Below, piece by piece: positions 45,560 through 57,310 of a DNA stretch of 64,000 nucleotides. The translations under genes were made by a program, and so were the position numbers. The stretch spans positions 32,001 to 96,000 of the forward strand of contig CAWFJP010000009.1 in the NCBI GenBank assembly GCA_963816145.1. Reading direction: 5' to 3'. This DNA comes from an uncultured delta proteobacterium (GTDB lineage Bacteria; Desulfobacterota; Binatia; UBA9968). The notes under the pieces are model-generated. The model was not told where the DNA came from and searched no databases. It saw only the letters and a list, made by a program, of their open reading frames with translations. Each line of letters starts with the position of its first letter. The stretch's first letter is position 1.

Positions 45560-46621
45560 GTGGGTGCGATTGACGCCGATGCGCATGTGATCGAGACCGT
45601 TCAGACCTGGAGTTATCTGGAAGGGGACGAGCGCCGTTTTACGCCGCAACTGATGACCCAGTCTTTCGGCGCGGAGTTGCTCAGCAACGAAGGAGATGCC
45701 GTGCGCGATTTTTGGGTGATCGAAGGACGCGCCCATGGCAAGGACCGCAATGTCGGCACCAACACCACCAAAGAATCGCGCGAGATGCTCAGCGTCGAGG
45801 CGCGGCTGGCGCATATGGACAAACTCGCCATCGAAGTTCAGGTGCTTTACCCGACGCTGTTTTTGCGGCCCATCGTGCAGGATGGCGAGCGCGAGCGGGC
45901 GCTGTGCAAATCTTATAACCGCTGGATGGGCGAGCTTTGGCGCCAGGGCCACGGCCGGCTGCGCTGGGTCGCCAAGCCGCCGCTGCAATATTTGGAAAAA
46001 TCACCGGCGGTCGTGCGCAACGAATTGGAGTGGGCCAAGCGGAACGGAGCCTGTGGCATCTTCATGCGCGGATTGGAGTGCGAGCGCGCCCTCGGTCACC
46101 CCTTTTTCTATCCGCTCTGGGAGATGTCGGCGGATCTCGATTTGCCGGTGTGCGTCCACTCGGCCAACGGCAGTTTCCTGCACCATGATTTTTTCGCCGA
46201 TGACACCAGCTTTACCAAATTCAAGCTCGCCGTCGTCGGCGCATTTCACACGCTCATGGAAAAACAGCTGGCGAAAAAATTCCCCAAGGTCCGCTGGGGT
46301 TTCGTCGAGGTCAGCGCCCAGTGGGTGCCCTATGTGCTCAATGATATGGCCGATCGCTACCGGCGCCAAGGCAAGGCCTTTCCCAATGATGCTCTCGCGG
46401 TCAACAACATGTGGGTCGCCTGCGAAAATAAAGACGATCTCCCGTACGTGTTGAGCTACGCGGGGGAGGATCGTTTGATGATCGGCACCGACTACGGCCA
46501 CCACGATCCATCGACGGAGCTCAACGCGGTGCATCTGCTGCGCAACGACAAGCGCTTGTCAGCCGATGTGGTGCAGCAAATTCTTGAGACCAATCCGCGC
46601 AAGTTTTACGGACTGGCGTGA
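45560..46621 (+). CDS. Amidohydrolase_2 family protein
   Basis: IDADAH, QVLYPT, PVCVH, GTDYGHHD. Confidence 0.9.
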   Translation: MGAIDADAHVIETVQTWSYLEGDERRFTPQLMTQSFGAELLSNEGDAVRDFWVIEGRAHGKDRNVGTNTTKESREMLSVEARLAHMDKLAIEVQVLYPTLFLRPIVQDGERERALCKSYNRWMGELWRQGHGRLRWVAKPPLQYLEKSPAVVRNELEWAKRNGACGIFMRGLECERALGHPFFYPLWEMSADLDLPVCVHSANGSFLHHDFFADDTSFTKFKLAVVGAFHTLMEKQLAKKFPKVRWGFVEVSAQWVPYVLNDMADRYRRQGKAFPNDALAVNNMWVACENKDDLPYVLSYAGEDRLMIGTDYGHHDPSTELNAVHLLRNDKRLSADVVQQILETNPRKFYGLA

Positions 46622-49680: not shown

Positions 49681-50778
49681 TCAGATCTGATAAAACTGCC
49701 GAGGATTGTCGCACAAGATCTTTTCGATCAATGCCGGGGCGACATCTTCACGCGACTGCATCTGCTTGACCAGTTGGGCTTGCTCGGCGGGATCGTTGTG
49801 GCCGTAGTCGGAACCGCTGATCAGGTGATCGGCGCCGGCGTATTCGATCAAGTAGTTCAAATCCTCATCGGCTTCGCAGGCGACGTAAAAGCGGCAGTCG
49901 TCGAACAAATCCCGCGGCGATTTCCACGATGTTTTCCAACGCTTGGTATTGTCCCGTTTCAGTTTGTGAATCAAGAATGGGATCCAGCTTGCCGAAGCTT
50001 CGAGAAAGCCGAAGCGTAGCTTCGGAAACATGTCGGGGATCCGGTTCAGCACGAGATCGCGGAACGCGTGCAGCGGCGGAAACGCCGAGTGGGACCACTG
50101 GCGGTTGCGTTCGAGGTCGAACATGGCGCTGATCGCCGGCGTGCTCGATCCGGTGTGGACGCAGATCGGCAGGTCGAGGTCGCTGGCGGCTTGGTAGGTA
50201 GGGTGGAACCGTGGGTTGTCGAGCGTGTATTCGCCTTCCATACCACGGAAGAATACGCCGACGGCGCCGTTCTGTTTGGCCCACTGTAATTCTTTGACCG
50301 ACTCGGCGATGTCGCGCAGCGGCGGTATCGCCACCCAATGAATGCGACCGTTACTCCGGGCGCAGGCTTGGGCGATGAAGCGGTTGTAAGCGCGGCTGAG
50401 CGCGACGTCGAGTTCGGGATCGTCGGTGAGGTAGACCAGAAACAGCGTCGGGTAGACGACCTGAGTGGCAATGCCGAGGCGGTCCATGTCGGCTAGCCGG
50501 CTGGGGATGTCGGTCATGTCGCGGCAGGCGACAGTCAAGTCTTTGCGATTGGATTGGATCTTCGACGCCGACGGCGTGATCAAGCGGAAGCCGCCTTTGC
50601 CGGCCGGCTTGGGAAAAATATTACCGTCGATGAGCCAGGTCTTGTTCCAGTTGCCGTAGAGAGTATTGTCCGGCAGCGACAGCAGCACGGGACGGCGGCC
50701 GTACATTTCTTTATCAAACATCGCCCACATCTCTTCGGATTCAGAAATGTGAGTATCGGCGTCGATGATCGGTTGCAT
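49681..50778 (-). CDS. Amidohydrolase_2 family protein
   Basis: IIDADTH, QVVYPT, PICVHTG, GSDYGHND; paralogue of 45560. Confidence 0.9.
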   Translation of the reverse strand: MQPIIDADTHISESEEMWAMFDKEMYGRRPVLLSLPDNTLYGNWNKTWLIDGNIFPKPAGKGGFRLITPSASKIQSNRKDLTVACRDMTDIPSRLADMDRLGIATQVVYPTLFLVYLTDDPELDVALSRAYNRFIAQACARSNGRIHWVAIPPLRDIAESVKELQWAKQNGAVGVFFRGMEGEYTLDNPRFHPTYQAASDLDLPICVHTGSSTPAISAMFDLERNRQWSHSAFPPLHAFRDLVLNRIPDMFPKLRFGFLEASASWIPFLIHKLKRDNTKRWKTSWKSPRDLFDDCRFYVACEADEDLNYLIEYAGADHLISGSDYGHNDPAEQAQLVKQMQSREDVAPALIEKILCDNPRQFYQI

Positions 50779-50863: not shown

Positions 50864-51851
50864 CTACGGCAAGAAACTCAAATCGATCAGTTGCTGCACG
50901 GTTAGACTCTTCGCTTTTGCATTCTCCTTCGCGATATCGTCGAGCGCCAATTGCATGCCTTTGATACTCGGCTTGCCGTCGTCGGGTAAGGATCGGATAC
51001 GCTGGATGTAATCGAATTCCGCTATGGCGCGGTCGTTGGTGCGCAGCCGCTTCATGGTTTCGCGGATGGCGACCTCTTTTTGCGTCTTATAATAGCGCAC
51101 GCTGTCGAGATAGGCCTTCATGAAACGGCGCACCAGGTCGGCGCGTGATCTTGAGCATATCGTCGCGGGCGATGATCGCCACCTGCTGGTACTCGATATC
51201 TTTCTCGATGAAGTCGAGCAGCAGGTTGAGGCCGCTCTTCTGGCCGATCTGGACCAAACCGAGGGTGAGAACGGCGGCGTCGATACTGCCCGCCTGCAGC
51301 GCGGTTAATCGGGTGGCGGCGCTGCCGACCTGAGTGATGCTGACATCAGTCTTGGGATTCAAGCCGAATTGTGACAATGCCAGCTTGACGGCGAAGTCAT
51401 CCGTGCTGCCGAAGCGGCTGATACCGATGCGTTTGCCTTTGAGCTGGGCCGGCGTCTTGATGTTGGCCAGGGAGACAAAGCCATAGGGGAGTTTGTTATT
51501 CACGCCGCCGATCATTTTTGTCTGGGCGCCTTCGAGATAGGCGACGATGTAGGGCGTGCCGCCGGTGCACAGGAAGTCCAAACTCTTGCCGATGAGCGCC
51601 TGCATGGACAGCGTGCCGCCGGCGATAAAGATCACTTCGACGTCGAGCTGGTTCTGTTTGAGCACGCCGGCGTCCCTGGCGATGCTGAACAACACCGACT
51701 CGGCGCTCGCCGGCGAATTGGTGCCGACGCGCAGGGTTGGCACTTGCGCCCACAGCGGGCAGGCTAGTGCAAGGCTGGCGATGACGATGGCGAGCCGGCA
51801 AGGCCAGTGTTCAGGCGTTACGGCAAGTAGAGGGGGAGATGAGTTCTTCAT
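50864..51851 (-). CDS. NMT1/SsuA-like substrate-binding protein, frameshift near 51148
   Basis: Removing one base joins MLK-SRADLVRRFMKAYLDS; LKGKRIGISRFGS. Confidence 0.8.
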
Positions 51852-51994
51852 CGGCGTCGTTAGAGCTAATGCAAAGCCACCCGGCTGTCAACGTGAAAGA
51901 TTGCCATTGGCGGTTGCAGGCCCAGCGCGAGTTTGCGTATATAAGCTAAACCAGCGGGAAAGTCTGACGGCATTTTTGAGGAGGAAAGAGCTAG

Positions 51995-52603
51995 ATGGCG
52001 ACTATCAAATTTCTCGATCCGCGGGCAGCGGTTAATCCCAAGGAGCAACCATTGGTGCCGGGCTTGGATTCGCTCGAAGGCAAGGTCATCGGCATCATCG
52101 ATAACGGCCAGTCCAATTCGACGGACATGTTCAAGGAGCTGAGCAAATTGCTGCAGGAACGGCTCCACGTCAAAGCAGTGTTGTTCAAGACCAAGCCGAC
52201 GCATATGCAAGGCGCTCCCAAGCCGATCATGGAGGAAATCGTAAACCAGTGTGACGCGGTCATTACCGGTTTAGGCGCTTGAGGTTCATGCACATCGTGG
52301 AGTGTCCACGATGCCATCGATCTGCAAAAGAAAGGCAAACCGACGGTGACGCTGTGCCAGTCGATTTTTATGGAATTGGCGCGCACCGAAGCGAAGTTCT
52401 TCGGTCTCGCTAAACTGCCGCTAGTCGAGATCCCGCATCATCCGAGCGGCGGCGCGCGCGAAGGAGAGCATCGGGCGGACGCCGAAGGGGCGATCGGGTT
52501 GGTTAACGAGCAGCTGAGCTTGAGCAGCGCTGGAGGAGGCAAGCAGGCGAAGACGGGTGATCCCTCTCCTAAATCCCCCCGCAAGCGGGGTAGGAAATTG
52601 TAG
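51995..52603 (+). CDS. UGSC-family selenoprotein (202 aa; Sec at UGA 52280-52282)
   Basis: ORF 51995-52282 and ORF 52346-52603 are in frame; reads ...CDAVITGLGA-U-GSCTSWSVHDAIDLQKKGKPTV...; GAGG RBS; SECIS-like hairpin downstream. Confidence 0.9.
52293..52313 (+). promoter_or_regulatory. Bacterial SECIS-like hairpin
   Basis: CATCGTGGA-GTG-TCCACGATG: perfect 9-bp stem with an apical GU, 10 nt after the UGA. Confidence 0.8.
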
Positions 52604-52635: not shown

Positions 52636-53140
52636 ATGTCGGAGTCTTTATTCCTTCCCCCGACTCGGGGGAAGGCTAGGATGGGGGGCGTGGCCACTAC
52701 AATCCAGAAAGCGCGTACGTTAAGAAGCAATTTGACGGATGCGGAACAGTTTCTCTGGCGGCGCTTGCGATTGCGTCAACTCGATGGCCACAAATTTAGA
52801 CGACAACGACCACTTGGACCATACATCGTCGATTTTGTCTGTTTGGAGAAAAAATTAGTAATCGAAGTCGATGGTGGCCAGCATAGCGACAATAAAGTCT
52901 ACGATTCGAGAAGCGCGATCGACTGGACTTAAGACACAAGGTTATCGAATCGTAAGATTTTGGAACAACGAAGTGCTGAAAAACATCGAAGGTGTGATCG
53001 AGATTATTCAGTGTGCTGCGAATGAACCCCCACCTGTATCCTCCCCCGGTTTCGGGGGAGGAAGGTACACCCGTGGCGCGGTGCTAGATAAGCTTGGCGG
53101 GAGTAAATCTATGACAAAGCGGAGTCTTAATAAGCGATGA
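52636..53140 (+). CDS. DUF559 (Vsr-like) endonuclease-domain protein, frameshifted at about 52909-52928
   Basis: ARTLRSNLTDAEQFLW..LR, KFRRQ.PLGPYIVDF.C, IEVDGGQH, then GYRIVRFWNNEV in the next frame. Confidence 0.85.
52651..52688. repeat. REP-like hairpin, left flank of the DUF559 gene
   Basis: CCTTCCCCCG-ACT-CGGGGGAAGG followed by CTAGGATGGGGGG. Confidence 0.8.
53027..53065. repeat. REP-like hairpin, right flank of the DUF559 gene (inverted)
   Basis: CCCCCACCTGTA followed by TCCTCCCCCG-GTTT-CGGGGGAGGA. Confidence 0.8.
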
Positions 53141-54202
53141 ACCTCACCTCAAACCTAATCGAAGTCGAAGATAGTTGGGAAGCGGTCAATGACTGGTTCT
53201 TGAAGGAAAAGCTCAGCGACGGCTTGCCCATCGTGCCGCCGACGGCGGCGCGGGTGGAGAAAATGCTCGCGGCGACGGCGCGCGATCCGGCGCAGGTCAT
53301 TGGGCCGATTCCGCCGAAGTGGGCGCCTTGCTCGATCGAGAAGATCGCCATTAACGCCGTCATGGCGGGCTGTTTGCCGGAATATTTGCCGGTGATCATC
53401 GCCGCGGTGGAAGCGATCTGCGAGCCGCGCTTCAATCTTTACGGCGTCCAGGCGACCACCGGTTACGTCGGCCCGGCGCTGCTGCTCAATGGACCGATTC
53501 GCACGGCGCTGAACGTCAACTGCGACTCGGGAGTGTTCGGTCCTGGTTTTCGATCCAATGCGACCATCGGCCGGGCGATTCGCTTGATTCTCATCACGGT
53601 GGGCGGCGGCTATCCCGGCGATACCGATCGCTCTACTTTCGGCTGGCCGGGAAAGTATACCATGTGTTTCGGCGAGAACCAGGAGAAAAGTCCCTGGGAA
53701 CCCTATCACGTCGAGTTCGGTTTCAAACCTGACGAGAGCACGGTCACGGTCTTCGGCATCAACGGATTTCTGCCGATCCACACCGCCGGCAATCGCGGCG
53801 AGCAGGCGCTGGCTTCATTGGCCGAAGTGATCAGGATGCATCATGGTGTCAGCCATCTGGACGTCGGCAGCTTCGGCGGTGGTACGCCGCTGATCGCGCT
53901 GGGCATCGAGGACGCCGAGATCATGGCGCGGGACGGTATCACCAAGAAGCAGGTCAAAGATTATCTCTGGGAGCATGCGTCGCTCAAGTTCGAAGAAATC
54001 CCGGCGCGGCGCAAAGGGCACAAGTCCGATGACGAATTGATGCGCGAGTCGATCAACATGACGCCGGACGGCGTGGTGCATCTATCCGACCAAGGCGGAA
54101 GACATCATGGTGATCGTCATCGGCGGCAAGCATCGCCATTCGGTGTTTCTGCCGATGTGGACGGGGCGCAATACGTTGTGTGTGATCAAAGGAATTGAGT
54201 AA
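53137..54202 (+). CDS. Conserved uncharacterised protein, probable UGSC partner; +1 frameshift near 54087
   Basis: DGLPIVPPT..RV..ML, IAINAVMAGC.PEY, NATIGRA; corrected C-terminus KAEDIMVIVIGGKHRHSVFLPMW...KGIE*. Confidence 0.8.
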
Positions 54203-54219: not shown

Positions 54220-55239
54220 GTGAGGCGTAAGGCGTTAGGAGTGAGGAGTCGCGAGTTGGGGCGGGCACTGCTCGCTCTATCCTTTGTCTTAGTGCAATGC
54301 GCCATCGCTAGCCTGGCACCAGCCCAGGAAAAGGTTCGTTTCCCCATCGGGGCTTCTTCGAAGACCTTCAGTTATGGACCGTTGTGGCTGGCGCAGAAGC
54401 TCGGTTACTTCGAGCGCGAGGGGTTGGACGTACAGATAGTCGTCATGCGCGGCACGCCGATCACGCTGCAAGCGCTTGCGACCGAGTCGATTTATGCCGC
54501 TAATGCCGGCACCGATGGTGTCATTACGGCCGTGGATAAAGGTTTGGATTTCGCCATGGTCGGTAGCTTGCTCAACAACCTGAGCATGAGCCTGGTCGCC
54601 GCCAAGCCGTACAAGACTTTCGACGATCTGCGCGGCAAGACTATCGGTTCGCAAACCCTCACCACGGGCACCGGGTTTGCGCTGCGCTTGGTGTTGCGCG
54701 CGCATGGGCTTGAATACCCGCGCGACTACCAGATTTTTAATGTCGGCGGCGTCACTGACCGCTATCTCGCGCTGCAATCCGGACAAATCGCCGCGACGCC
54801 GCTGAGCGTGCCGCTCGATAACGACGCCAAACAAAAGGGGTTCAATGTCATAGGTTACTTCGCCGACGATCTACCGACTTATTTTTTCAATCCCTATATC
54901 GTCAAGCGCTCTTGGGCCGAGAAAAATCGACCGCTAGTGGTGCGCTATATGAAGACGATCACGCAAACCCACCGCTGGCTGTTCGACAACCGCGACCCGG
55001 CCTGCGCGTATCTGGCGAAGGAAATGTCGATGACCGTGGAGAACTGCCGTATTGCCTGGGAATACAGCGTCAAGAATCGCGTGTGGGATCGCAACGCCGA
55101 GCTCAATGTGGACGGCGTGCGCACCATGATCAAGATCGTCGCCGAGATCAACGGCCAGAAGGAGCCGCTGGCACAGCCGGCGAAATATATCGATCCGAGT
55201 TATTTGAAGCAAGCGCTGGGAGAGTTGGCGAAGAAGTAA
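54220..55239 (+). CDS. NMT1/SsuA-like substrate-binding protein
   Basis: Signal peptide; SSKTFSYGPLW, GYFEREGLDV; start uncertain. Confidence 0.88.
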   Translation: MRRKALGVRSRELGRALLALSFVLVQCAIASLAPAQEKVRFPIGASSKTFSYGPLWLAQKLGYFEREGLDVQIVVMRGTPITLQALATESIYAANAGTDGVITAVDKGLDFAMVGSLLNNLSMSLVAAKPYKTFDDLRGKTIGSQTLTTGTGFALRLVLRAHGLEYPRDYQIFNVGGVTDRYLALQSGQIAATPLSVPLDNDAKQKGFNVIGYFADDLPTYFFNPYIVKRSWAEKNRPLVVRYMKTITQTHRWLFDNRDPACAYLAKEMSMTVENCRIAWEYSVKNRVWDRNAELNVDGVRTMIKIVAEINGQKEPLAQPAKYIDPSYLKQALGELAKK

Positions 55240-55278
55240 GATAGTCAGGAGCAAGTAGTCAGGAGTTAGGAGTTTCAG

Positions 55279-56259
55279 ATGATGAGACGAATCGTCGCCG
55301 GCTGCTTACTAATGTTCGGTCTGCTCGCGGGACGTATCGACGCCCAGGAAAGGTTTCGCTTCCCCATCGGCGAGTCATCGAAGACCTTGAGCTATGGGCC
55401 ACTGTGGGTGGCGGCGAAGATGGGTTTCTTTGAGAAGGAGGGGTTAGAAGTTCCGATCGTTACCATGCGCGGTTCGCCCCTGACCATTCAAGCGCTGACG
55501 GCCGATTCCATTTACGTCGCCAGCGCCACCGTCGACACGCTCATCAACGCGTACGAGAGAGGCGCGGATATCACCATGATCGGCGGCTTGATCAATGGAC
55601 TTGGGTTGAGCATGATCGGCGCCAAGCAGTACAAGACCTACGGAGACCTGCGCGGCACGACTATCGGTTCCCAGACGCTAACCTCCGGCACCGGCTTCGC
55701 CCTGCGGCTGGTGATGAAAGTCCACGGCCTTGAATATCCGCGAGACTATAAGCTCCTGAACATCGGCAGCGCGCCGGATCGCTTTCGGGCGTTGGCTTCG
55801 GGGCAGATCTCATCCGCGCCCGTGGGTGTGCCACTCGACCTCGTCGCAAAGCAACAAGGTTTCAACATCATCGGCTATTTCGCCGACGATCAGCCCAATT
55901 TTCAGTTCAACGTCTATATCGTCAAGCGTTCTTGGGCGGAAAAAAACCGGACGTTGGTGGTGCGCTTCATGAAAGCGATGGTCGCGACGATGCGTTGGAT
56001 GGCTGACAACCGCGACGCGGCCTGTGCTTATCTGACCAAGGAGATGTCCATCGGCATGGACGATTGCCGCTATGCCTACGATTATAACTGGAAAAACCGT
56101 ATATGGGATCGCAATGCCGATCTCAACGTCGAAGGCGTGCGCACGATCATCAATTTAACCGCGGACCAAGGGGTCTTGAAAGAGCCTCTGCCCCAACCGT
56201 CGAAATACGTCGATCCCAGCTATCTCAAACAGGCCCTCGCGGAAGTGGGCAAGCCGTGA
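55279..56259 (+). CDS. NMT1/SsuA-like substrate-binding protein (close paralogue of 54220)
   Basis: SSKTLSYGPLW, GSQTLTSGTGFALRL, LEYPRDY. Confidence 0.9.
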   Translation: MMRRIVAGCLLMFGLLAGRIDAQERFRFPIGESSKTLSYGPLWVAAKMGFFEKEGLEVPIVTMRGSPLTIQALTADSIYVASATVDTLINAYERGADITMIGGLINGLGLSMIGAKQYKTYGDLRGTTIGSQTLTSGTGFALRLVMKVHGLEYPRDYKLLNIGSAPDRFRALASGQISSAPVGVPLDLVAKQQGFNIIGYFADDQPNFQFNVYIVKRSWAEKNRTLVVRFMKAMVATMRWMADNRDAACAYLTKEMSIGMDDCRYAYDYNWKNRIWDRNADLNVEGVRTIINLTADQGVLKEPLPQPSKYVDPSYLKQALAEVGKP

Positions 56260-56308
56260 AAGGTGAGGCGAGCAACTTGAGGCGCGAGACAGAAAAATAG
56301 GAGTAAGT

Positions 56309-57310
56309 ATGGATAAGTCAATTCGCTTGGCTGCTTTGATTTCGTTATTGAGCGTGGCATCTCTGGCCGCTTCTGTCAGCGCCCAGGACAAGATTCGCAT
56401 GGGCTTGAGTTCGGTGAGCGGGTTACACACCGCTGTCTGGGTGGCTGAAACAAAAGGGCTCTTTCGTAAACACGGATTGGATGTCGAAGTGATCGTCACC
56501 GGCCAGGGCGGCACTGCGGGCATTAGCGCGCTAATTGCGAACGACGTGCAAATGGTGAACTCAGCCGGCGATGTCTTGGTCGCGGCTGCACTGCGCGGCG
56601 GCGATACCGTGATGGTCGCCGGTGTCGTCAACAAGGGGCTGCAGCGGTTGATCACCAAGCCCGACATAAAAACTCCCGCGGATCTAAAGGGCAAACGAGT
56701 CGGCGTCACCCGCATTGGCGCGGTGTCCCATTCCGTGTTGTTGATGATGCTGCAGCGCTGGAAGATGAGCGTCAACGACGTCCAGGTCATGCAGCTCGGC
56801 TCGTCGCCGAGCATGCTGGCGACCCTGGACAAGGGAGGCATCGAAGGAGCTGTGGTGACGATTCCTTCGATGTTCGTCGCCGAAGACCGCGGATATCGAG
56901 TGTTGCTCGATATGGCCGATACCGACATTTACTATTTGCATACGATGGTCGCGACAACGCGCCAATACATCAAAAATAATCGCGACAAGGTGCTGCGCTT
57001 TCTCAAGGGTTATGTCGAAGGAATTGCGTTTGTCAAACATAACAGGCAGGAAAGTGTGGACATCGTCAAGAAGAAGCTTCGCATCGGTCCCGAGCAGGAG
57101 AAGACTCTGGAACGCTCGATAGATTTATTAGTCGCGAAATACTACGAGTCGGTGCCCTATCCATCGTTGCGCGGCGTTGAAACGGTGCTCGGCTTCATCG
57201 AAAAGGACAATCCCAAGGCGAAGACCGCCGATCCGAAGTCGTTCGTCGACGACAGTTTGCTGCGCGAGATCGAGCAGAGCGGGTTTGTGAAGACGCTTTA
57301 TGCGAAATAG
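56309..57310 (+). CDS. NMT1/SsuA-like substrate-binding protein
   Basis: Signal peptide; WVAETKGLFRKHGLDVE, DLKGKRVGVTRIG. Confidence 0.9.
   Translation: MDKSIRLAALISLLSVASLAASVSAQDKIRMGLSSVSGLHTAVWVAETKGLFRKHGLDVEVIVTGQGGTAGISALIANDVQMVNSAGDVLVAAALRGGDTVMVAGVVNKGLQRLITKPDIKTPADLKGKRVGVTRIGAVSHSVLLMMLQRWKMSVNDVQVMQLGSSPSMLATLDKGGIEGAVVTIPSMFVAEDRGYRVLLDMADTDIYYLHTMVATTRQYIKNNRDKVLRFLKGYVEGIAFVKHNRQESVDIVKKKLRIGPEQEKTLERSIDLLVAKYYESVPYPSLRGVETVLGFIEKDNPKAKTADPKSFVDDSLLREIEQSGFVKTLYAK

What the first reader, a model, noticed from the sequence alone, without database searches (positions are those of the whole stretch)
51995..52603. Hidden selenoprotein: UGA recoded in a U-G-S-C redox motif with a SECIS hairpin
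Seen: the ORF track splits this region into 95 aa and 85 aa ORFs, but both are in one frame and the only interruption is TGA 52280-52282. Read-through gives GLGA-U-GSC-TSWSVHDA, a UxxC thioredoxin-style motif. A perfect 9-bp hairpin with an apical GU (52293-52313) starts 10 nt after the UGA. Known: this matches bacterial SECIS geometry and the UGSC selenoprotein family, whose function is unknown. Inference: the organism has selABCD elsewhere and makes a 202-aa Sec protein.
Basis: partly seen in the sequence, partly recalled or inferred. Interest (0 to 1): 0.88.

Follow-up and report, generated by a model that had tools for sequence, protein, structure and literature searches.

The report
Known UGSC selenoprotein gene, confirmed
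The two short reading frames are one real gene whose internal UGA encodes selenocysteine; it belongs to the known but functionally unsolved UGSC family, which works with a large unnamed partner protein encoded just downstream.

Summary
Window 51995-52603 is one frame with a single TGA (52280-52282). A perfect 9-bp hairpin (52293-52313, loop GUG) starts 10 nt after it. Read-through gives GLGA-U-GSC-TSW.

It is a genuine selenoprotein gene of the known UGSC family (Pfam PF24696, E 1.9e-42).
- The genome has selA, selB, selD and tRNA-Sec.
- All 82 family matches that cover the site, in 41 genomes of the order, keep exactly one TGA.
- Cys forms exist elsewhere.
- The part after the TGA evolves as coding sequence (dN/dS 0.04-0.16).
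- Wobble bases inside the hairpin are frozen.

- The predicted fold is flavodoxin-like. No thioredoxin fold appeared in the searches.
- A profile comparison aligns its Sec on the Sec of GrdB-type reductase proteins (hhalign 84%, E 8e-6).
- In all four copies in this genome the domain is fused to, or followed by, a ~350-aa protein of no described family and no matched fold. Here that is 53137-54198.
- A complex model of a fused Cys homologue puts the CGSC motif in the interface (0.77; best control 0.01).

The function is still unknown. The family has been in print since 2007-2008, and this scan has reported the same system on other DNA (241 notes).

The parts
51980..51984 (+). Shine-Dalgarno-like GGAGG, 10 nt before the ATG
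   Evidence: read directly
51995..52603 (+). UGSC-family selenoprotein gene, 202 codons with Sec at codon 96. The family domain covers residues 6-174. Residues ~179-202 are a variable tail.
   Evidence: dN/dS 0.08-0.17 before and 0.04-0.16 after the TGA against 7 orthologues
52280..52282 (+). UGA read as selenocysteine (U96), first residue of U-G-S-C
   Evidence: every family match that covers this column has exactly one TGA (82 of 82 rows; 79 of 79 without the unpublished genome G005)
52293..52313 (+). SECIS-type hairpin: 9-bp stem, loop GUG, over codons T-S-W-S-V-H-D
   Evidence: 7 of 9 pairs are invariant in 39 distinct sequences. Pair 52294/52312 is A-U here against G-C in 36. Wobble bases in the stem are frozen, while two wobble sites just upstream take all four bases.
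52636..53140 (+). DUF559 ORF lying between the selenoprotein gene and its partner gene. It is split over two frames (52636-52932 and 52871-53140). Small G+C hairpins stand at 52653 and 53039.
   Evidence: a DUF559 hit lies at this place in 9 of 13 window-type loci of the genus
53137..54198 (+). Partner gene, 353 codons as called, of no described family. One extra base near 54088 shifts the last ~35 codons. In the relatives' frame it would end at a TAA about 54200-54202.
49681..50778 (-). Amidohydro_2 (PF04909) gene, a conserved neighbour
51087..51851 (-). NMT1/THI5-like solute-binding protein gene, divergent from the selenoprotein gene
54220..55239 (+). NMT1/THI5-like solute-binding protein gene, the first of three in a row

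Best explanation
SHOWN BY COMPARISON (about 0.93). One gene, 51995-52603, encodes a UGSC-family selenoprotein. SelB with Sec-tRNA(Sec) reads UGA 52280-52282 as selenocysteine, directed by the hairpin 52293-52313 inside the coding sequence.

INFERRED FROM MODEL AND PROFILES (about 0.6). The protein is a flavodoxin-like alpha/beta domain. Sec96 sits at the N-terminus of a helix directly after a beta strand, and Cys99 lies one turn on. It is a distant relative of the Sec-bearing C-terminal module of the glycine/betaine/sarcosine/proline reductase 'selenoprotein B' family.

INFERRED MECHANISM (about 0.5). It is not a free-standing thioredoxin. It is the redox module of a two-part enzyme whose catalytic part is the ~350-aa protein encoded downstream (53137-54198). 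In other copies that protein is fused to the UGSC domain.
- The U-G-S-C loop and the conserved N-terminal arm dock onto the partner's most conserved motifs: DGLPxxPPT, the helix before NAVMAG-C79, QxTT and GG.
- Sec attacks a substrate or a Cys adduct held by the partner.
- Cys99 then resolves the intermediate into a selenenylsulfide.
- A thioredoxin-type system reduces the selenenylsulfide again.

UNKNOWN. The substrate is not known. The neighbours (an Amidohydro_2 enzyme and NMT1-type solute-binding proteins) suggest an imported small organic molecule.
For: READ-THROUGH
- Sec machinery: selA 616 bits, selB 417 bits, selD 380 bits (itself with one TGA) and tRNA-Sec 74 bits with anticodon TCA, all on contig C30.
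- Own genome: PF24696 matches 4 places, each with one TGA.
- Order: 37 of 41 genomes have a match. Of 84 rows, 82 have exactly one TGA. The other 2 are fragments that stop short of the Sec column.
- Phylum sample: 24 of 201 genomes have a match, most rows with one TGA and some with none.
- Cys forms exist.
- dN/dS after the TGA is 0.04-0.16 in 7 of 7 pairs, at dS 0.6-1.5.
- Stem wobble bases are invariant in 39 sequences, and the window shows one compensated pair.
- Contigs of other metagenomes match from 52279/52280 to 52311 only, that is the TGA plus the hairpin core. Depth rises there.

FAMILY
- PF24696 scores 145.7 bits against a cut-off of 25.

FOLD
- pLDDT 88.9, pTM 0.80, order b-a-b-a-b-a-b-a-b-a, Sec at the start of helix 97-112.
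- Matches are generic flavodoxin/CheY/periplasmic-binding-protein types: VIA Z up to 11.4, Foldseek TM up to 0.5.

GrdB LINK
- hhalign of the UGSC alignment against the genome's six GrdB-like proteins: probability 83.7%, E 8.1e-6, 73 columns, Sec column on Sec column.
- 17 of 30 UGSC proteins hit TIGR01917 weakly (best E 0.0021) and 5 of 30 hit TIGR01918.

PARTNER
- In this genome UGSC is fused to the partner domain in 2 copies and followed by it in the other 2.
- 30 of the 84 rows have open frames of 500 aa or more.
- The partner family has 4966 cluster representatives at E <= 0.001.
- Some are fused to Cys-type UGSC. Others are fused instead to a CxxC thioredoxin/TlpA-looking domain: P0093, P0110 and P0180, judged by eye.
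- Complex model of the Cys-type fusion P0072 cut into its two domains: ipSAE 0.77 (median of three runs), best of 3 controls 0.01. That mark was reached by 58 of 80 solved complexes and 2 of 110 mismatched pairs. The runs agree in at least 83% of contacts and the partner's pLDDT is at least 80.
- The interface of that model includes residues 97-103, which are CGSCTAW, and the N-terminal arm 4-17.
Against: - No selenium incorporation, expression or activity has been measured.
- NCBIfam's strict equivalog cut-off is missed: 109 bits against 125.
- The hairpin's energy alone is unremarkable, z -1.73.
- Covariation is thin. One compensated pair is seen. 2 of 39 sequences break that same pair, 19 of 39 lack the ninth pair, and 25 of 500 shuffles reach the score.
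- No Rfam family matched.
- The GrdB link is 84%, not 95% or more. It covers 73 columns and rests on a template of only six paralogues.
- The complex model is of a homologue 28% identical to the window protein and naturally fused, not of the window's own pair. Cys261 of the partner domain is not among the confidently touching residues.
- In this window the partner gene carries a frameshift near 54088, and a DUF559 ORF separates the two genes.
- Three window-type loci of the genus (L054, L056, L057) show no partner within the stretch fetched.
Confidence: 0.8

Rival explanations
1. UGSC is a free-standing thiol/selenol-disulfide oxidoreductase, the 'Trx-like' redox protein of the literature. It serves many clients, and the downstream protein is only one neighbour or client.
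For: - It has a UxxC motif.
- Passages of PMC2398784 call it 'likely Trx-like fold'.
- Stand-alone forms of ~180-220 aa are common.
- Three window-type loci have no partner gene nearby.
Against: - The model is flavodoxin-like, and no thioredoxin fold was listed.
- Fusion or adjacency to the same domain holds in all 4 copies of this genome, and 30 of 84 rows have frames of 500 aa or more.
- The docking model puts the motif into the partner's conserved surface.
Confidence: 0.15
2. The window's copy is a decaying module. The selenoprotein gene is intact, but its partner is frameshifted and cut off by a DUF559 insertion. This copy is then idle, or it works only with partners encoded elsewhere.
For: - The window has one extra base near 54088 compared with 4 relatives.
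- Contigs of four metagenome runs also lack that base: X1 12.1 of 12.1, X2 4.4 of 4.4, X4 7.54 of 7.54 and X6 2.6 of 7.9 depth.
- The DUF559 ORF is split over two frames.
Against: - The UGSC gene is under purifying selection, and its hairpin kept pairing through a double change.
- DUF559 sits at the same place in 9 of 13 loci where the partner is intact, so the insertion is old and tolerated.
- The extra base may be an assembly error. No run of the source sample was laid.
- Only the last ~35 of 353 codons are affected.
Confidence: 0.12
3. The TGA is a true stop: a truncated gene, a pseudogene or two separate small genes.
For: Standard ORF calling gives 95-aa and 85-aa ORFs. Public gene calls cut many relatives at this point: many hits cover only 47% of the query.
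Against: - The TGA is kept in 82 of 82 covering matches, across paralogues that are 25-40% identical.
- The downstream part is under purifying selection in the same frame.
- The family profile runs across the TGA without a break, residues 6-174.
- Cys forms exist.
- The Sec machinery is present.
Confidence: 0.03
4. The TGA is a sequencing or assembly error for TGC or TGT.
For: The assembly shows possible indel problems nearby, at 54088 and in DUF559.
Against: - The same TGA stands in every orthologue and paralogue examined.
- Three contigs of other metagenomes span the site, and no difference at 52280-52282 appears among the rows shown. Only 40 of 169 rows were shown, so this is not proof.
Confidence: 0.01

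Closest known systems
UGSC-containing selenoprotein family (Pfam PF24696; NCBIfam NF041046; Zhang and Gladyshev, PMC1976440 and PMC2398784)
   Same: - Profile match, U-G-S-C motif, Cys forms in other organisms and a coding-region hairpin after the UGA.
- Fusion to a further unknown domain is already noted in PMC2398784 as 'UGSC/Unknown_1' (passages read).
   Different: - Nothing essential differs.
- The window protein scores below NCBIfam's equivalog cut-off (109 against 125) and has a longer C-terminal tail.
- The paper's 'likely Trx-like fold' is not what the model shows.
- Whether 'Unknown_1' is the partner domain described here could not be checked. It is in Figure S1A, and supplements were closed.
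Selenoprotein B of glycine/sarcosine/betaine reductase and PrdB of D-proline reductase (PF07355, TIGR01917, TIGR01918)
   Same: - A strand, then U-G-[ST]-x-[ST], then a helix, then 'E-K-x-G-I-P-T-V' and a strand. The Sec aligns on the Sec.
- It is a two-part enzyme in which the Sec subunit attacks a substrate held by the other subunit. This mechanism is as described in the passages of PMC11229817 read.
   Different: - The ~340-aa GRDB N-terminal region is absent.
- The partner is not a GrdE/PrdA pyruvoyl proprotein by any search run here.
- The organisms are soil and wetland bacteria with large genomes, not Stickland fermenters. The habitat is only as labelled on the runs.
- This genome also has six true GrdB-family Sec genes elsewhere.
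Thioredoxin/TlpA-like CxxC domains
   Same: A redox pair at the start of a helix. Such domains replace UGSC in front of the partner domain in P0093, P0110 and P0180 (judged by eye), so the role is probably equivalent.
   Different: Different predicted topology: five beta-alpha units.
Bacterial SECIS elements such as that of E. coli fdhF (recalled, not tested)
   Same: A hairpin inside the coding sequence shortly after the UGA, with G/U in the apical loop.
   Different: A 3-nt GUG loop on a perfect stem without a bulge. No covariance model for it exists in Rfam 15.

Membership tests
UGSC family (Pfam PF24696) | Profile match above the gathering score across the Sec position | tested here: met
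   145.7 bits against a cut-off of 25, E 1.9e-42, residues 6-174 on profile positions 2-170 of 172
UGSC family (NCBIfam NF041046, equivalog) | Score at or above the curated cut-off of 125 bits | tested here: not met
   109 bits for the window protein. Paralogues L021 and L022 score 137 and pass; L024 scores 54.6.
UGSC family | U/C-G-S-C motif, with Cys in place of Sec in some members | tested here: met
   GA-U-GSC in the window. CGSC in P0034, P0030, P0066, P0072, P0080, P0140, P0171 and P0172.
Bacterial selenoprotein gene | In-frame UGA with conserved coding sequence on both sides | tested here: met
Bacterial selenoprotein gene | SECIS hairpin shortly after the UGA | tested here: met
   A 9-bp stem 10 nt after the UGA, kept in 39 sequences with frozen wobble bases. 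The spacing and loop rules of bSECISearch are recalled and were not run. No Rfam model matched.
Bacterial selenoprotein gene | selA, selB, selD and tRNA-Sec in the genome | tested here: met
   All are over their cut-offs, on contig C30
Bacterial selenoprotein gene | Selenium found in the protein | not testable with these tools
   needs 75Se labelling or mass spectrometry
GrdB/PrdB selenoprotein B (PF07355, TIGR01917) | GRDB N-terminal region and a full-length match | tested here: not met
   No PF07355 hit. TIGR01917 scores 12.1 bits against a cut-off of 602.
GrdB/PrdB selenoprotein B | Homologous Sec-bearing module | tested here: inconclusive
   hhalign 83.7%, E 8.1e-6, Sec on Sec. 17 of 30 UGSC proteins hit TIGR01917 weakly. 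No solved GrdB was found by sequence for comparison.
GrdB/PrdB selenoprotein B | Pyruvoyl proprotein partner (GrdE/PrdA) encoded alongside | tested here: not met
   The neighbours are Amidohydro_2, NMT1-type binding proteins, DUF559 and the unnamed partner
Thioredoxin fold | Thioredoxin-type topology | tested here: inconclusive
   The model has five beta-alpha units. No thioredoxin appears among the rows listed by Foldseek or VIA-align. A family that is not listed is not excluded.

The most novel reading that the evidence does not exclude
UGSC plus its partner is a very widespread selenium-dependent two-part reductase of aerobic soil and water bacteria.
- Its Sec module descends from the same stock as the Sec module of glycine and proline reductase.
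- Its catalytic subunit is a protein of a fold not yet seen in solved structures, with conserved Cys79, Arg146, Cys177 and Glu180.
- It cleaves or reduces an imported small molecule.
- Copy numbers of up to 14-16 per genome would reflect different substrates.
- A bolder, untested form: the near-invariant Gly-Cys of the partner is processed into a cofactor, as in PrdA and GrdE.
Probability: 0.4. Interest if true: 0.7.

Novelty: new member of a known kind. Interest (0 to 1): 0.3.

Why it matters
For this window it matters mainly for annotation. Gene callers cut the gene at the UGA, or read the UGA as Trp (P0002-P0005).

For the field, UGSC is one of the most abundant selenoprotein families in aquatic metagenomes, with 255 Sec and 21 Cys forms in GOS (PMC2398784, passages read). 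It still has no function.

The linked partner family has 4966 cluster representatives, no Pfam or NCBIfam model and no structural match. Together with the link to GrdB/PrdB, it gives a concrete and testable hypothesis: a two-part selenol-dependent reductase. It also gives a defined pair of proteins to express.

None of this is special to this window, and the scan has reached the same reading on other genomes.

Tried and rejected
- Rfam scan of 52150-52450 at E <= 10: no match.
- PDB by sequence: the partner gave nothing at E <= 1. The UGSC profile gave only a chance-level hit, E 0.95. The GrdB-like profile gave nothing at E <= 0.01. No solved relative is therefore available to test the GrdB link by structure.
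- Fold searches for the partner model (pLDDT 93.4): Foldseek's best is E 1.6e-3 at TM 0.21, to cyclic amide hydrolases. VIA-align's best is Z 5.4 over 92 residues, to a chorismate-mutase/YjgF-like piece at residues 205-345. I treat these as no usable match, not as proof of a new fold.
- Pfam and NCBIfam for the partner: no family at E <= 0.01.
- Atlas: the partner's own cluster is auto-named 'Thioredoxin (Fragment) family protein', with no common Pfam family and commonest phylum Candidatus Binatota. This is a lead only.
- Complex prediction of the window's own pair could not be run. A natural Cys-type fusion homologue was modelled instead.
- Other TGA-plus-hairpin places in the window (4460, 22775, 52626, 53023) have only short frames around them and are not selenoprotein candidates.
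- Sequencing runs: the best holders share 0.47-0.56 of the words, so they are relatives and not the source. They cannot settle whether the extra base at 54088 is real.
- Literature: a search for 'selenoprotein' with 'Binatota' found no paper. In the passages read from PMC2398784, PMC1976440, PMC9312934, PMC5029168 and PMC13188914 I saw no statement linking UGSC to GrdB/PrdB. The whole texts and the supplements were not read.
Full report
1. THE OBSERVATION

The ORF list gives 51995-52282 (95 aa) and 52346-52603 (85 aa) in one frame. The only interruption is TGA 52280-52282. Reading it as U gives a 202-residue product with ...CDAVITGLGA-U-GSC-TSWSVHDAIDLQKKGKPTV.... A GGAGG lies 10 nt before the ATG.

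The hairpin is as described. CATCGTGGA (52293-52301) pairs with TCCACGATG (52305-52313) around the loop GTG, and it starts 10 nt after the UGA.

Taken alone the hairpin is weak evidence:
- The 66-nt stretch folds at -19.5 kcal/mol against -14.8 +/- 2.7 for shuffles. That is z -1.73, and 11 of 200 shuffles fold as well.
- Perfect 9-bp hairpins occur at 11 places in the window (20 nested hits), against a mean of 3.0 in 20 shuffles.
- Of 1003 TGA triplets, 5 are followed within 8-25 nt by such a hairpin. Only 52280 has long open frames on both sides, 95 and 106 codons.

2. IS THE UGA READ AS SELENOCYSTEINE?

Machinery. The window is C9:32001-96000 of a 7.82-Mb assembly in 31 contigs, rated 99.5% complete and 6.7% contaminated. 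Contig C30 carries, all over their cut-offs:
- selA (616.5 bits),
- selB (417.4 bits),
- selD (380.1 bits, itself with one in-frame TGA),
- tRNA-Sec (74.2 bits; ARAGORN gives anticodon TCA).

Conservation of the codon.
- The UGSC profile finds 4 places in this genome, each with exactly one TGA.
- In 41 genomes of the same order (G000 included), 37 have a match. Of 84 match rows, 82 have exactly one TGA. The other 2 are contig-end fragments that do not reach the Sec column.
- These counts include three rows of G005, an unpublished genome. Without it: 36 of 40 genomes, and 79 of 79 covering rows.
- In an even sample of 201 genomes of the phylum, 24 have a match. Most rows have one TGA and some have none.

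Cys forms. P0034 and P0030 and the fusions P0066, P0072, P0080, P0140, P0171 and P0172 carry CGSC. The closest public proteins, P0002-P0005 (73-82% identical), show W at this column. That is what a gene caller prints when it reads TGA by a code in which TGA is Trp. Many further hits cover only 47% of the query, which means they were cut at the TGA.

Coding constraint. Against 7 orthologues of the genus, dN/dS is 0.08-0.17 before the TGA and 0.04-0.16 after it. dS is 0.6-1.5, and codon 96 is TGA in all 7.

The RNA element. In 39 distinct sequences from three paralogue types:
- 7 of the 9 stem pairs never vary.
- The pair 52294/52312 is G-C in 36, A-U in the window (a change on both sides) and unpaired in 2.
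- The ninth pair is present in 20 of 39.
- The formal covariation score is weak: 25 of 500 shuffles reach it.
- More telling are the third-codon bases inside the stem (TCG, GTC, CAC) and the loop's AGT. They are invariant, although the proteins are only 25-40% identical. The wobble sites of the two codons just before the stem take all four bases.
- The divergent fused paralogue (U-S-T-C type, L024) has a different, G+C-rich hairpin at the same distance.
- Rfam has no matching family.

Other metagenomes. Contigs from four runs of four studies were laid.
- Three contigs span the TGA. No difference at 52280-52282 is among the rows shown, but only 40 of 169 were shown, so this is not proof.
- Many further contigs match only from 52279/52280 to 52311, that is the TGA plus the hairpin core. 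Depth rises there from about 6-11 to 19-56 in three of the runs.

I conclude that the UGA is a Sec codon, with probability about 0.93. Nothing here measures selenium.

3. WHAT FAMILY IT IS

- Pfam PF24696 'UGSC': E 1.9e-42, 145.7 bits against a cut-off of 25.
- NCBIfam NF041046 'UGSC family (seleno)protein': 109 bits, below its equivalog cut-off of 125. Two paralogues pass with 137.
- The literature I read, as passages only, calls it the 'UGSC-containing protein'. It is a selenoprotein of unknown function known since 2007 (PMC1976440).
- It is one of the major families in the Global Ocean Sampling data, with 255 Sec and 21 Cys forms. That paper calls it 'likely' of Trx-like fold and reports a fusion 'UGSC/Unknown_1' (PMC2398784).
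- Reviews of 2022 and 2026 still list no function (PMC9312934; PMC13188914).

4. FOLD, AND A LINK TO THE REDUCTASE B PROTEINS

- The AlphaFold model used a 30-row alignment and reached pLDDT 88.9 and pTM 0.80. It shows five beta-alpha units. Sec96 is the first residue after strand 88-94, at the start of helix 97-112.
- Foldseek and VIA-align list generic three-layer alpha/beta domains: flavodoxin-like, CheY-like and periplasmic-binding-protein lobes. E is about 1e-5 with TM up to 0.5, and Z reaches 11.4. No entry stands out and no thioredoxin is listed.
- The first family scan had shown a faint hit to glycine reductase selenoprotein B (TIGR01917, E 0.066) over residues 80-148.
- Following it, I found six GRDB-family genes (PF07355) in this genome. 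Each continues through an in-frame TGA right where the Pfam model ends, with the motif LTS[AT]-U-G-[ST]-x-[ST]-R. One of them reads U-G-S-C.
- The profile comparison of the UGSC alignment with these six gives probability 83.7% and E 8.1e-6 over 73 columns. Sec lies on Sec, and the following 'EK-x-G-I-P-T-V' strand is aligned.
- Scanned one by one, 17 of 30 UGSC proteins hit TIGR01917 (best E 0.0021), 5 of 30 hit TIGR01918 and 2 of 30 hit the betaine reductase B model.
- I take distant homology of the Sec module as likely but not proven. The protein is not a GrdB, because the ~340-residue GRDB region is missing.

5. THE PARTNER

The ORF 53137-54198 (353 aa) has no Pfam or NCBIfam family and no PDB relative by sequence.

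Linkage in this genome:
- Two of the four UGSC copies are fused to a homologue of it in one frame (L021 about 545 aa, L024 554 aa).
- The third copy is followed by one on the same strand (L022).
- The window copy is followed by it after a DUF559 ORF.

Linkage elsewhere:
- 30 of the 84 rows have open frames of 500 aa or more.
- The partner family is large: 4966 cluster representatives at E <= 0.001 and 1282 at E <= 1e-30. They include forms of ~350 aa, ~420-460 aa, ~530-560 aa and ~710-740 aa.
- Among the 16 I read, 10 have a UGSC-type domain in front. Seven of these have a full CG[SN]C motif; P0154 lacks the second Cys, P0055 has W at the Sec column, and P0065 is a form cut short at its N-terminus.
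- Three (P0093, P0110, P0180) have instead a domain with a CxxC motif that looks like a thioredoxin/TlpA-type domain. I judged this by eye and did not scan it.
- One (P0126) has another domain in front. Two (P0052, P0057) begin within the C-terminal half of a UGSC-like domain, as if cut at the TGA.

Structure and conserved residues:
- The model is of the intact orthologue in L060, 95% identical to the window's first 317 residues. It is very confident: pLDDT 93.4, pTM 0.93.
- It finds nothing usable in the PDB. Foldseek's best is E 1.6e-3 at TM 0.21. VIA's best is Z 5.4 over 92 residues.
- Near-invariant residues include DGLP-x-x-PPT, NAVMAG-C79, R146, C177, E180 and P-W.

Complex model:
- The window's own pair could not be sent for complex prediction.
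- The natural Cys-type fusion P0072 was cut into its two domains instead. It gave ipSAE 0.77 (median of three runs), with the best of 3 controls at 0.01.
- That mark was reached by 58 of 80 solved complexes and 2 of 110 mismatched pairs. The runs agree in at least 83% of contacts and the partner's pLDDT is at least 80. My own alignment was used, so these counts hold only roughly.
- No like complex is solved, as far as searches show, so memory of a known structure is unlikely. The two halves are naturally one chain, however.
- The confident interface holds residues 97-103 (CGSCTAW) and the N-terminal arm 4-17 of the UGSC domain.
- On the partner side it holds part of the DGLPIVPPT motif, the helix just before AGC261, QATT and the GGG loop.
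- Cys261 itself is not among the listed contacts.

6. HOW IT MOST LIKELY WORKS

Shown by comparison: UGA recoding by a coding-region hairpin in a genome with the Sec machinery.

Inferred: UGSC is the selenol/thiol module of a two-part enzyme.
- The partner binds the substrate.
- Sec96 attacks the substrate or a Cys adduct.
- Cys99 resolves the intermediate to a selenenylsulfide.
- A thioredoxin-type system restores it.

Three things argue for this. A CxxC domain can take UGSC's place in front of the partner. The motif docks on the partner's conserved surface. And there is the analogy with PrdA/PrdB, where the Sec of PrdB attacks the substrate bound to PrdA (PMC11229817, passages).

The substrate is unknown. 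The context is conserved: Amidohydro_2 and an NMT1-type binding protein upstream, and further NMT1-type binding proteins downstream. An Amidohydro_2 gene also stands beside the second paralogue type (L022, L055, L062, L063). That points to an imported small organic compound. I give this mechanism about 0.5.

7. STATE OF THE WINDOW'S COPY

- The UGSC gene looks intact.
- The partner gene has one extra base near 54088 compared with four relatives and with contigs of all four metagenome runs. This replaces the last ~35 residues.
- The DUF559 ORF between the two genes is split over two frames.
- The DUF559 insertion is old. A DUF559 hit lies at that place in 9 of 13 window-type loci. One locus (L055) has the two genes 134 nt apart without it. 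Three loci (L054, L056, L057) show no partner in the stretch fetched.
- Whether the extra base is real or an assembly error cannot be told without reads of the source sample.

8. NOVELTY AND VERDICT

The gene is a new member of a known family. The fusion to an unknown domain is in print in outline. 'Unknown_1' is in Figure S1A of PMC2398784, which I could not open, so its identity with the partner is unverified.

This scan has described the same system before on other DNA. 241 notes hold the words, and several report the partner, the thioredoxin module and the distant link to glycine/proline reductase. I read those notes after reaching the same points, so they agree but are not independent proof.

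Interest is 0.3. This is sound annotation and a testable hypothesis for an abundant orphan selenoprotein, but nothing in it is peculiar to this window.

Noticed in passing
window 54088 (partner gene 53137-54198): The window has one extra base compared with 4 relatives and with contigs of 4 metagenome runs. It shifts the last ~35 codons. In the relatives' frame the gene would read ...TKAEDIMVIVIGGKHRHSVFLPMW... and end at a TAA about 54200-54202. It is either a real frameshift or an assembly error.
   Followed up: partly
window 52636-53140: A DUF559 ORF sits between the selenoprotein gene and its partner. It is split over two frames and has small G+C hairpins at 52653 and 53039. A DUF559 hit lies at the same place in 9 of 13 window-type loci of the genus, so the insertion is old.
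   Followed up: partly
own genome: L066-L071 (C27, C5, C31, C8, C29, C4): Six GRDB-family (PF07355) genes each continue through an in-frame TGA with the motif LTS[AT]-U-G[ST]x[ST]R. These are six more likely selenoprotein genes that standard calling would truncate. In L067 a 424-aa ORF stands just upstream; it was not examined.
   Followed up: partly
own genome C30:565877-566803 (L010): selD itself carries one in-frame TGA, so the selenophosphate synthetase is probably a selenoprotein too.
   Followed up: no
own genome: L021 (C5), L022 (C3), L024 (C8): There are three further UGSC copies. Two are fused to the partner domain; one of these has U-S-T-C and a different hairpin. One is stand-alone and followed by a partner gene. 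The ORF upstream of the L021 fusion looks like a quinolinate-synthase-type protein (by eye). The one upstream of L024 looks like a tripartite-tricarboxylate-type binding protein (by eye).
   Followed up: partly
phylum sample, genomes G074 and G211: These two genomes have 14 and 16 UGSC-family matches, nearly all in open frames of 560-640 aa. This is a large expansion of the fused form.
   Followed up: no
public proteins P0002-P0005: The closest public homologues carry W at the Sec column. Their gene calls read TGA as Trp, which is an annotation artefact. P0006 and P0007 look frameshifted around the motif.
   Followed up: no
window 54220-57270: Three NMT1/THI5-like solute-binding protein genes stand in a row downstream of the partner gene, and a fourth stands upstream on the other strand (51087-51851).
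   Followed up: no
window 46022-46615: A second Amidohydro_2-like stretch, 36% identical to the one at 49681-50778, lies a few kb upstream.
   Followed up: no
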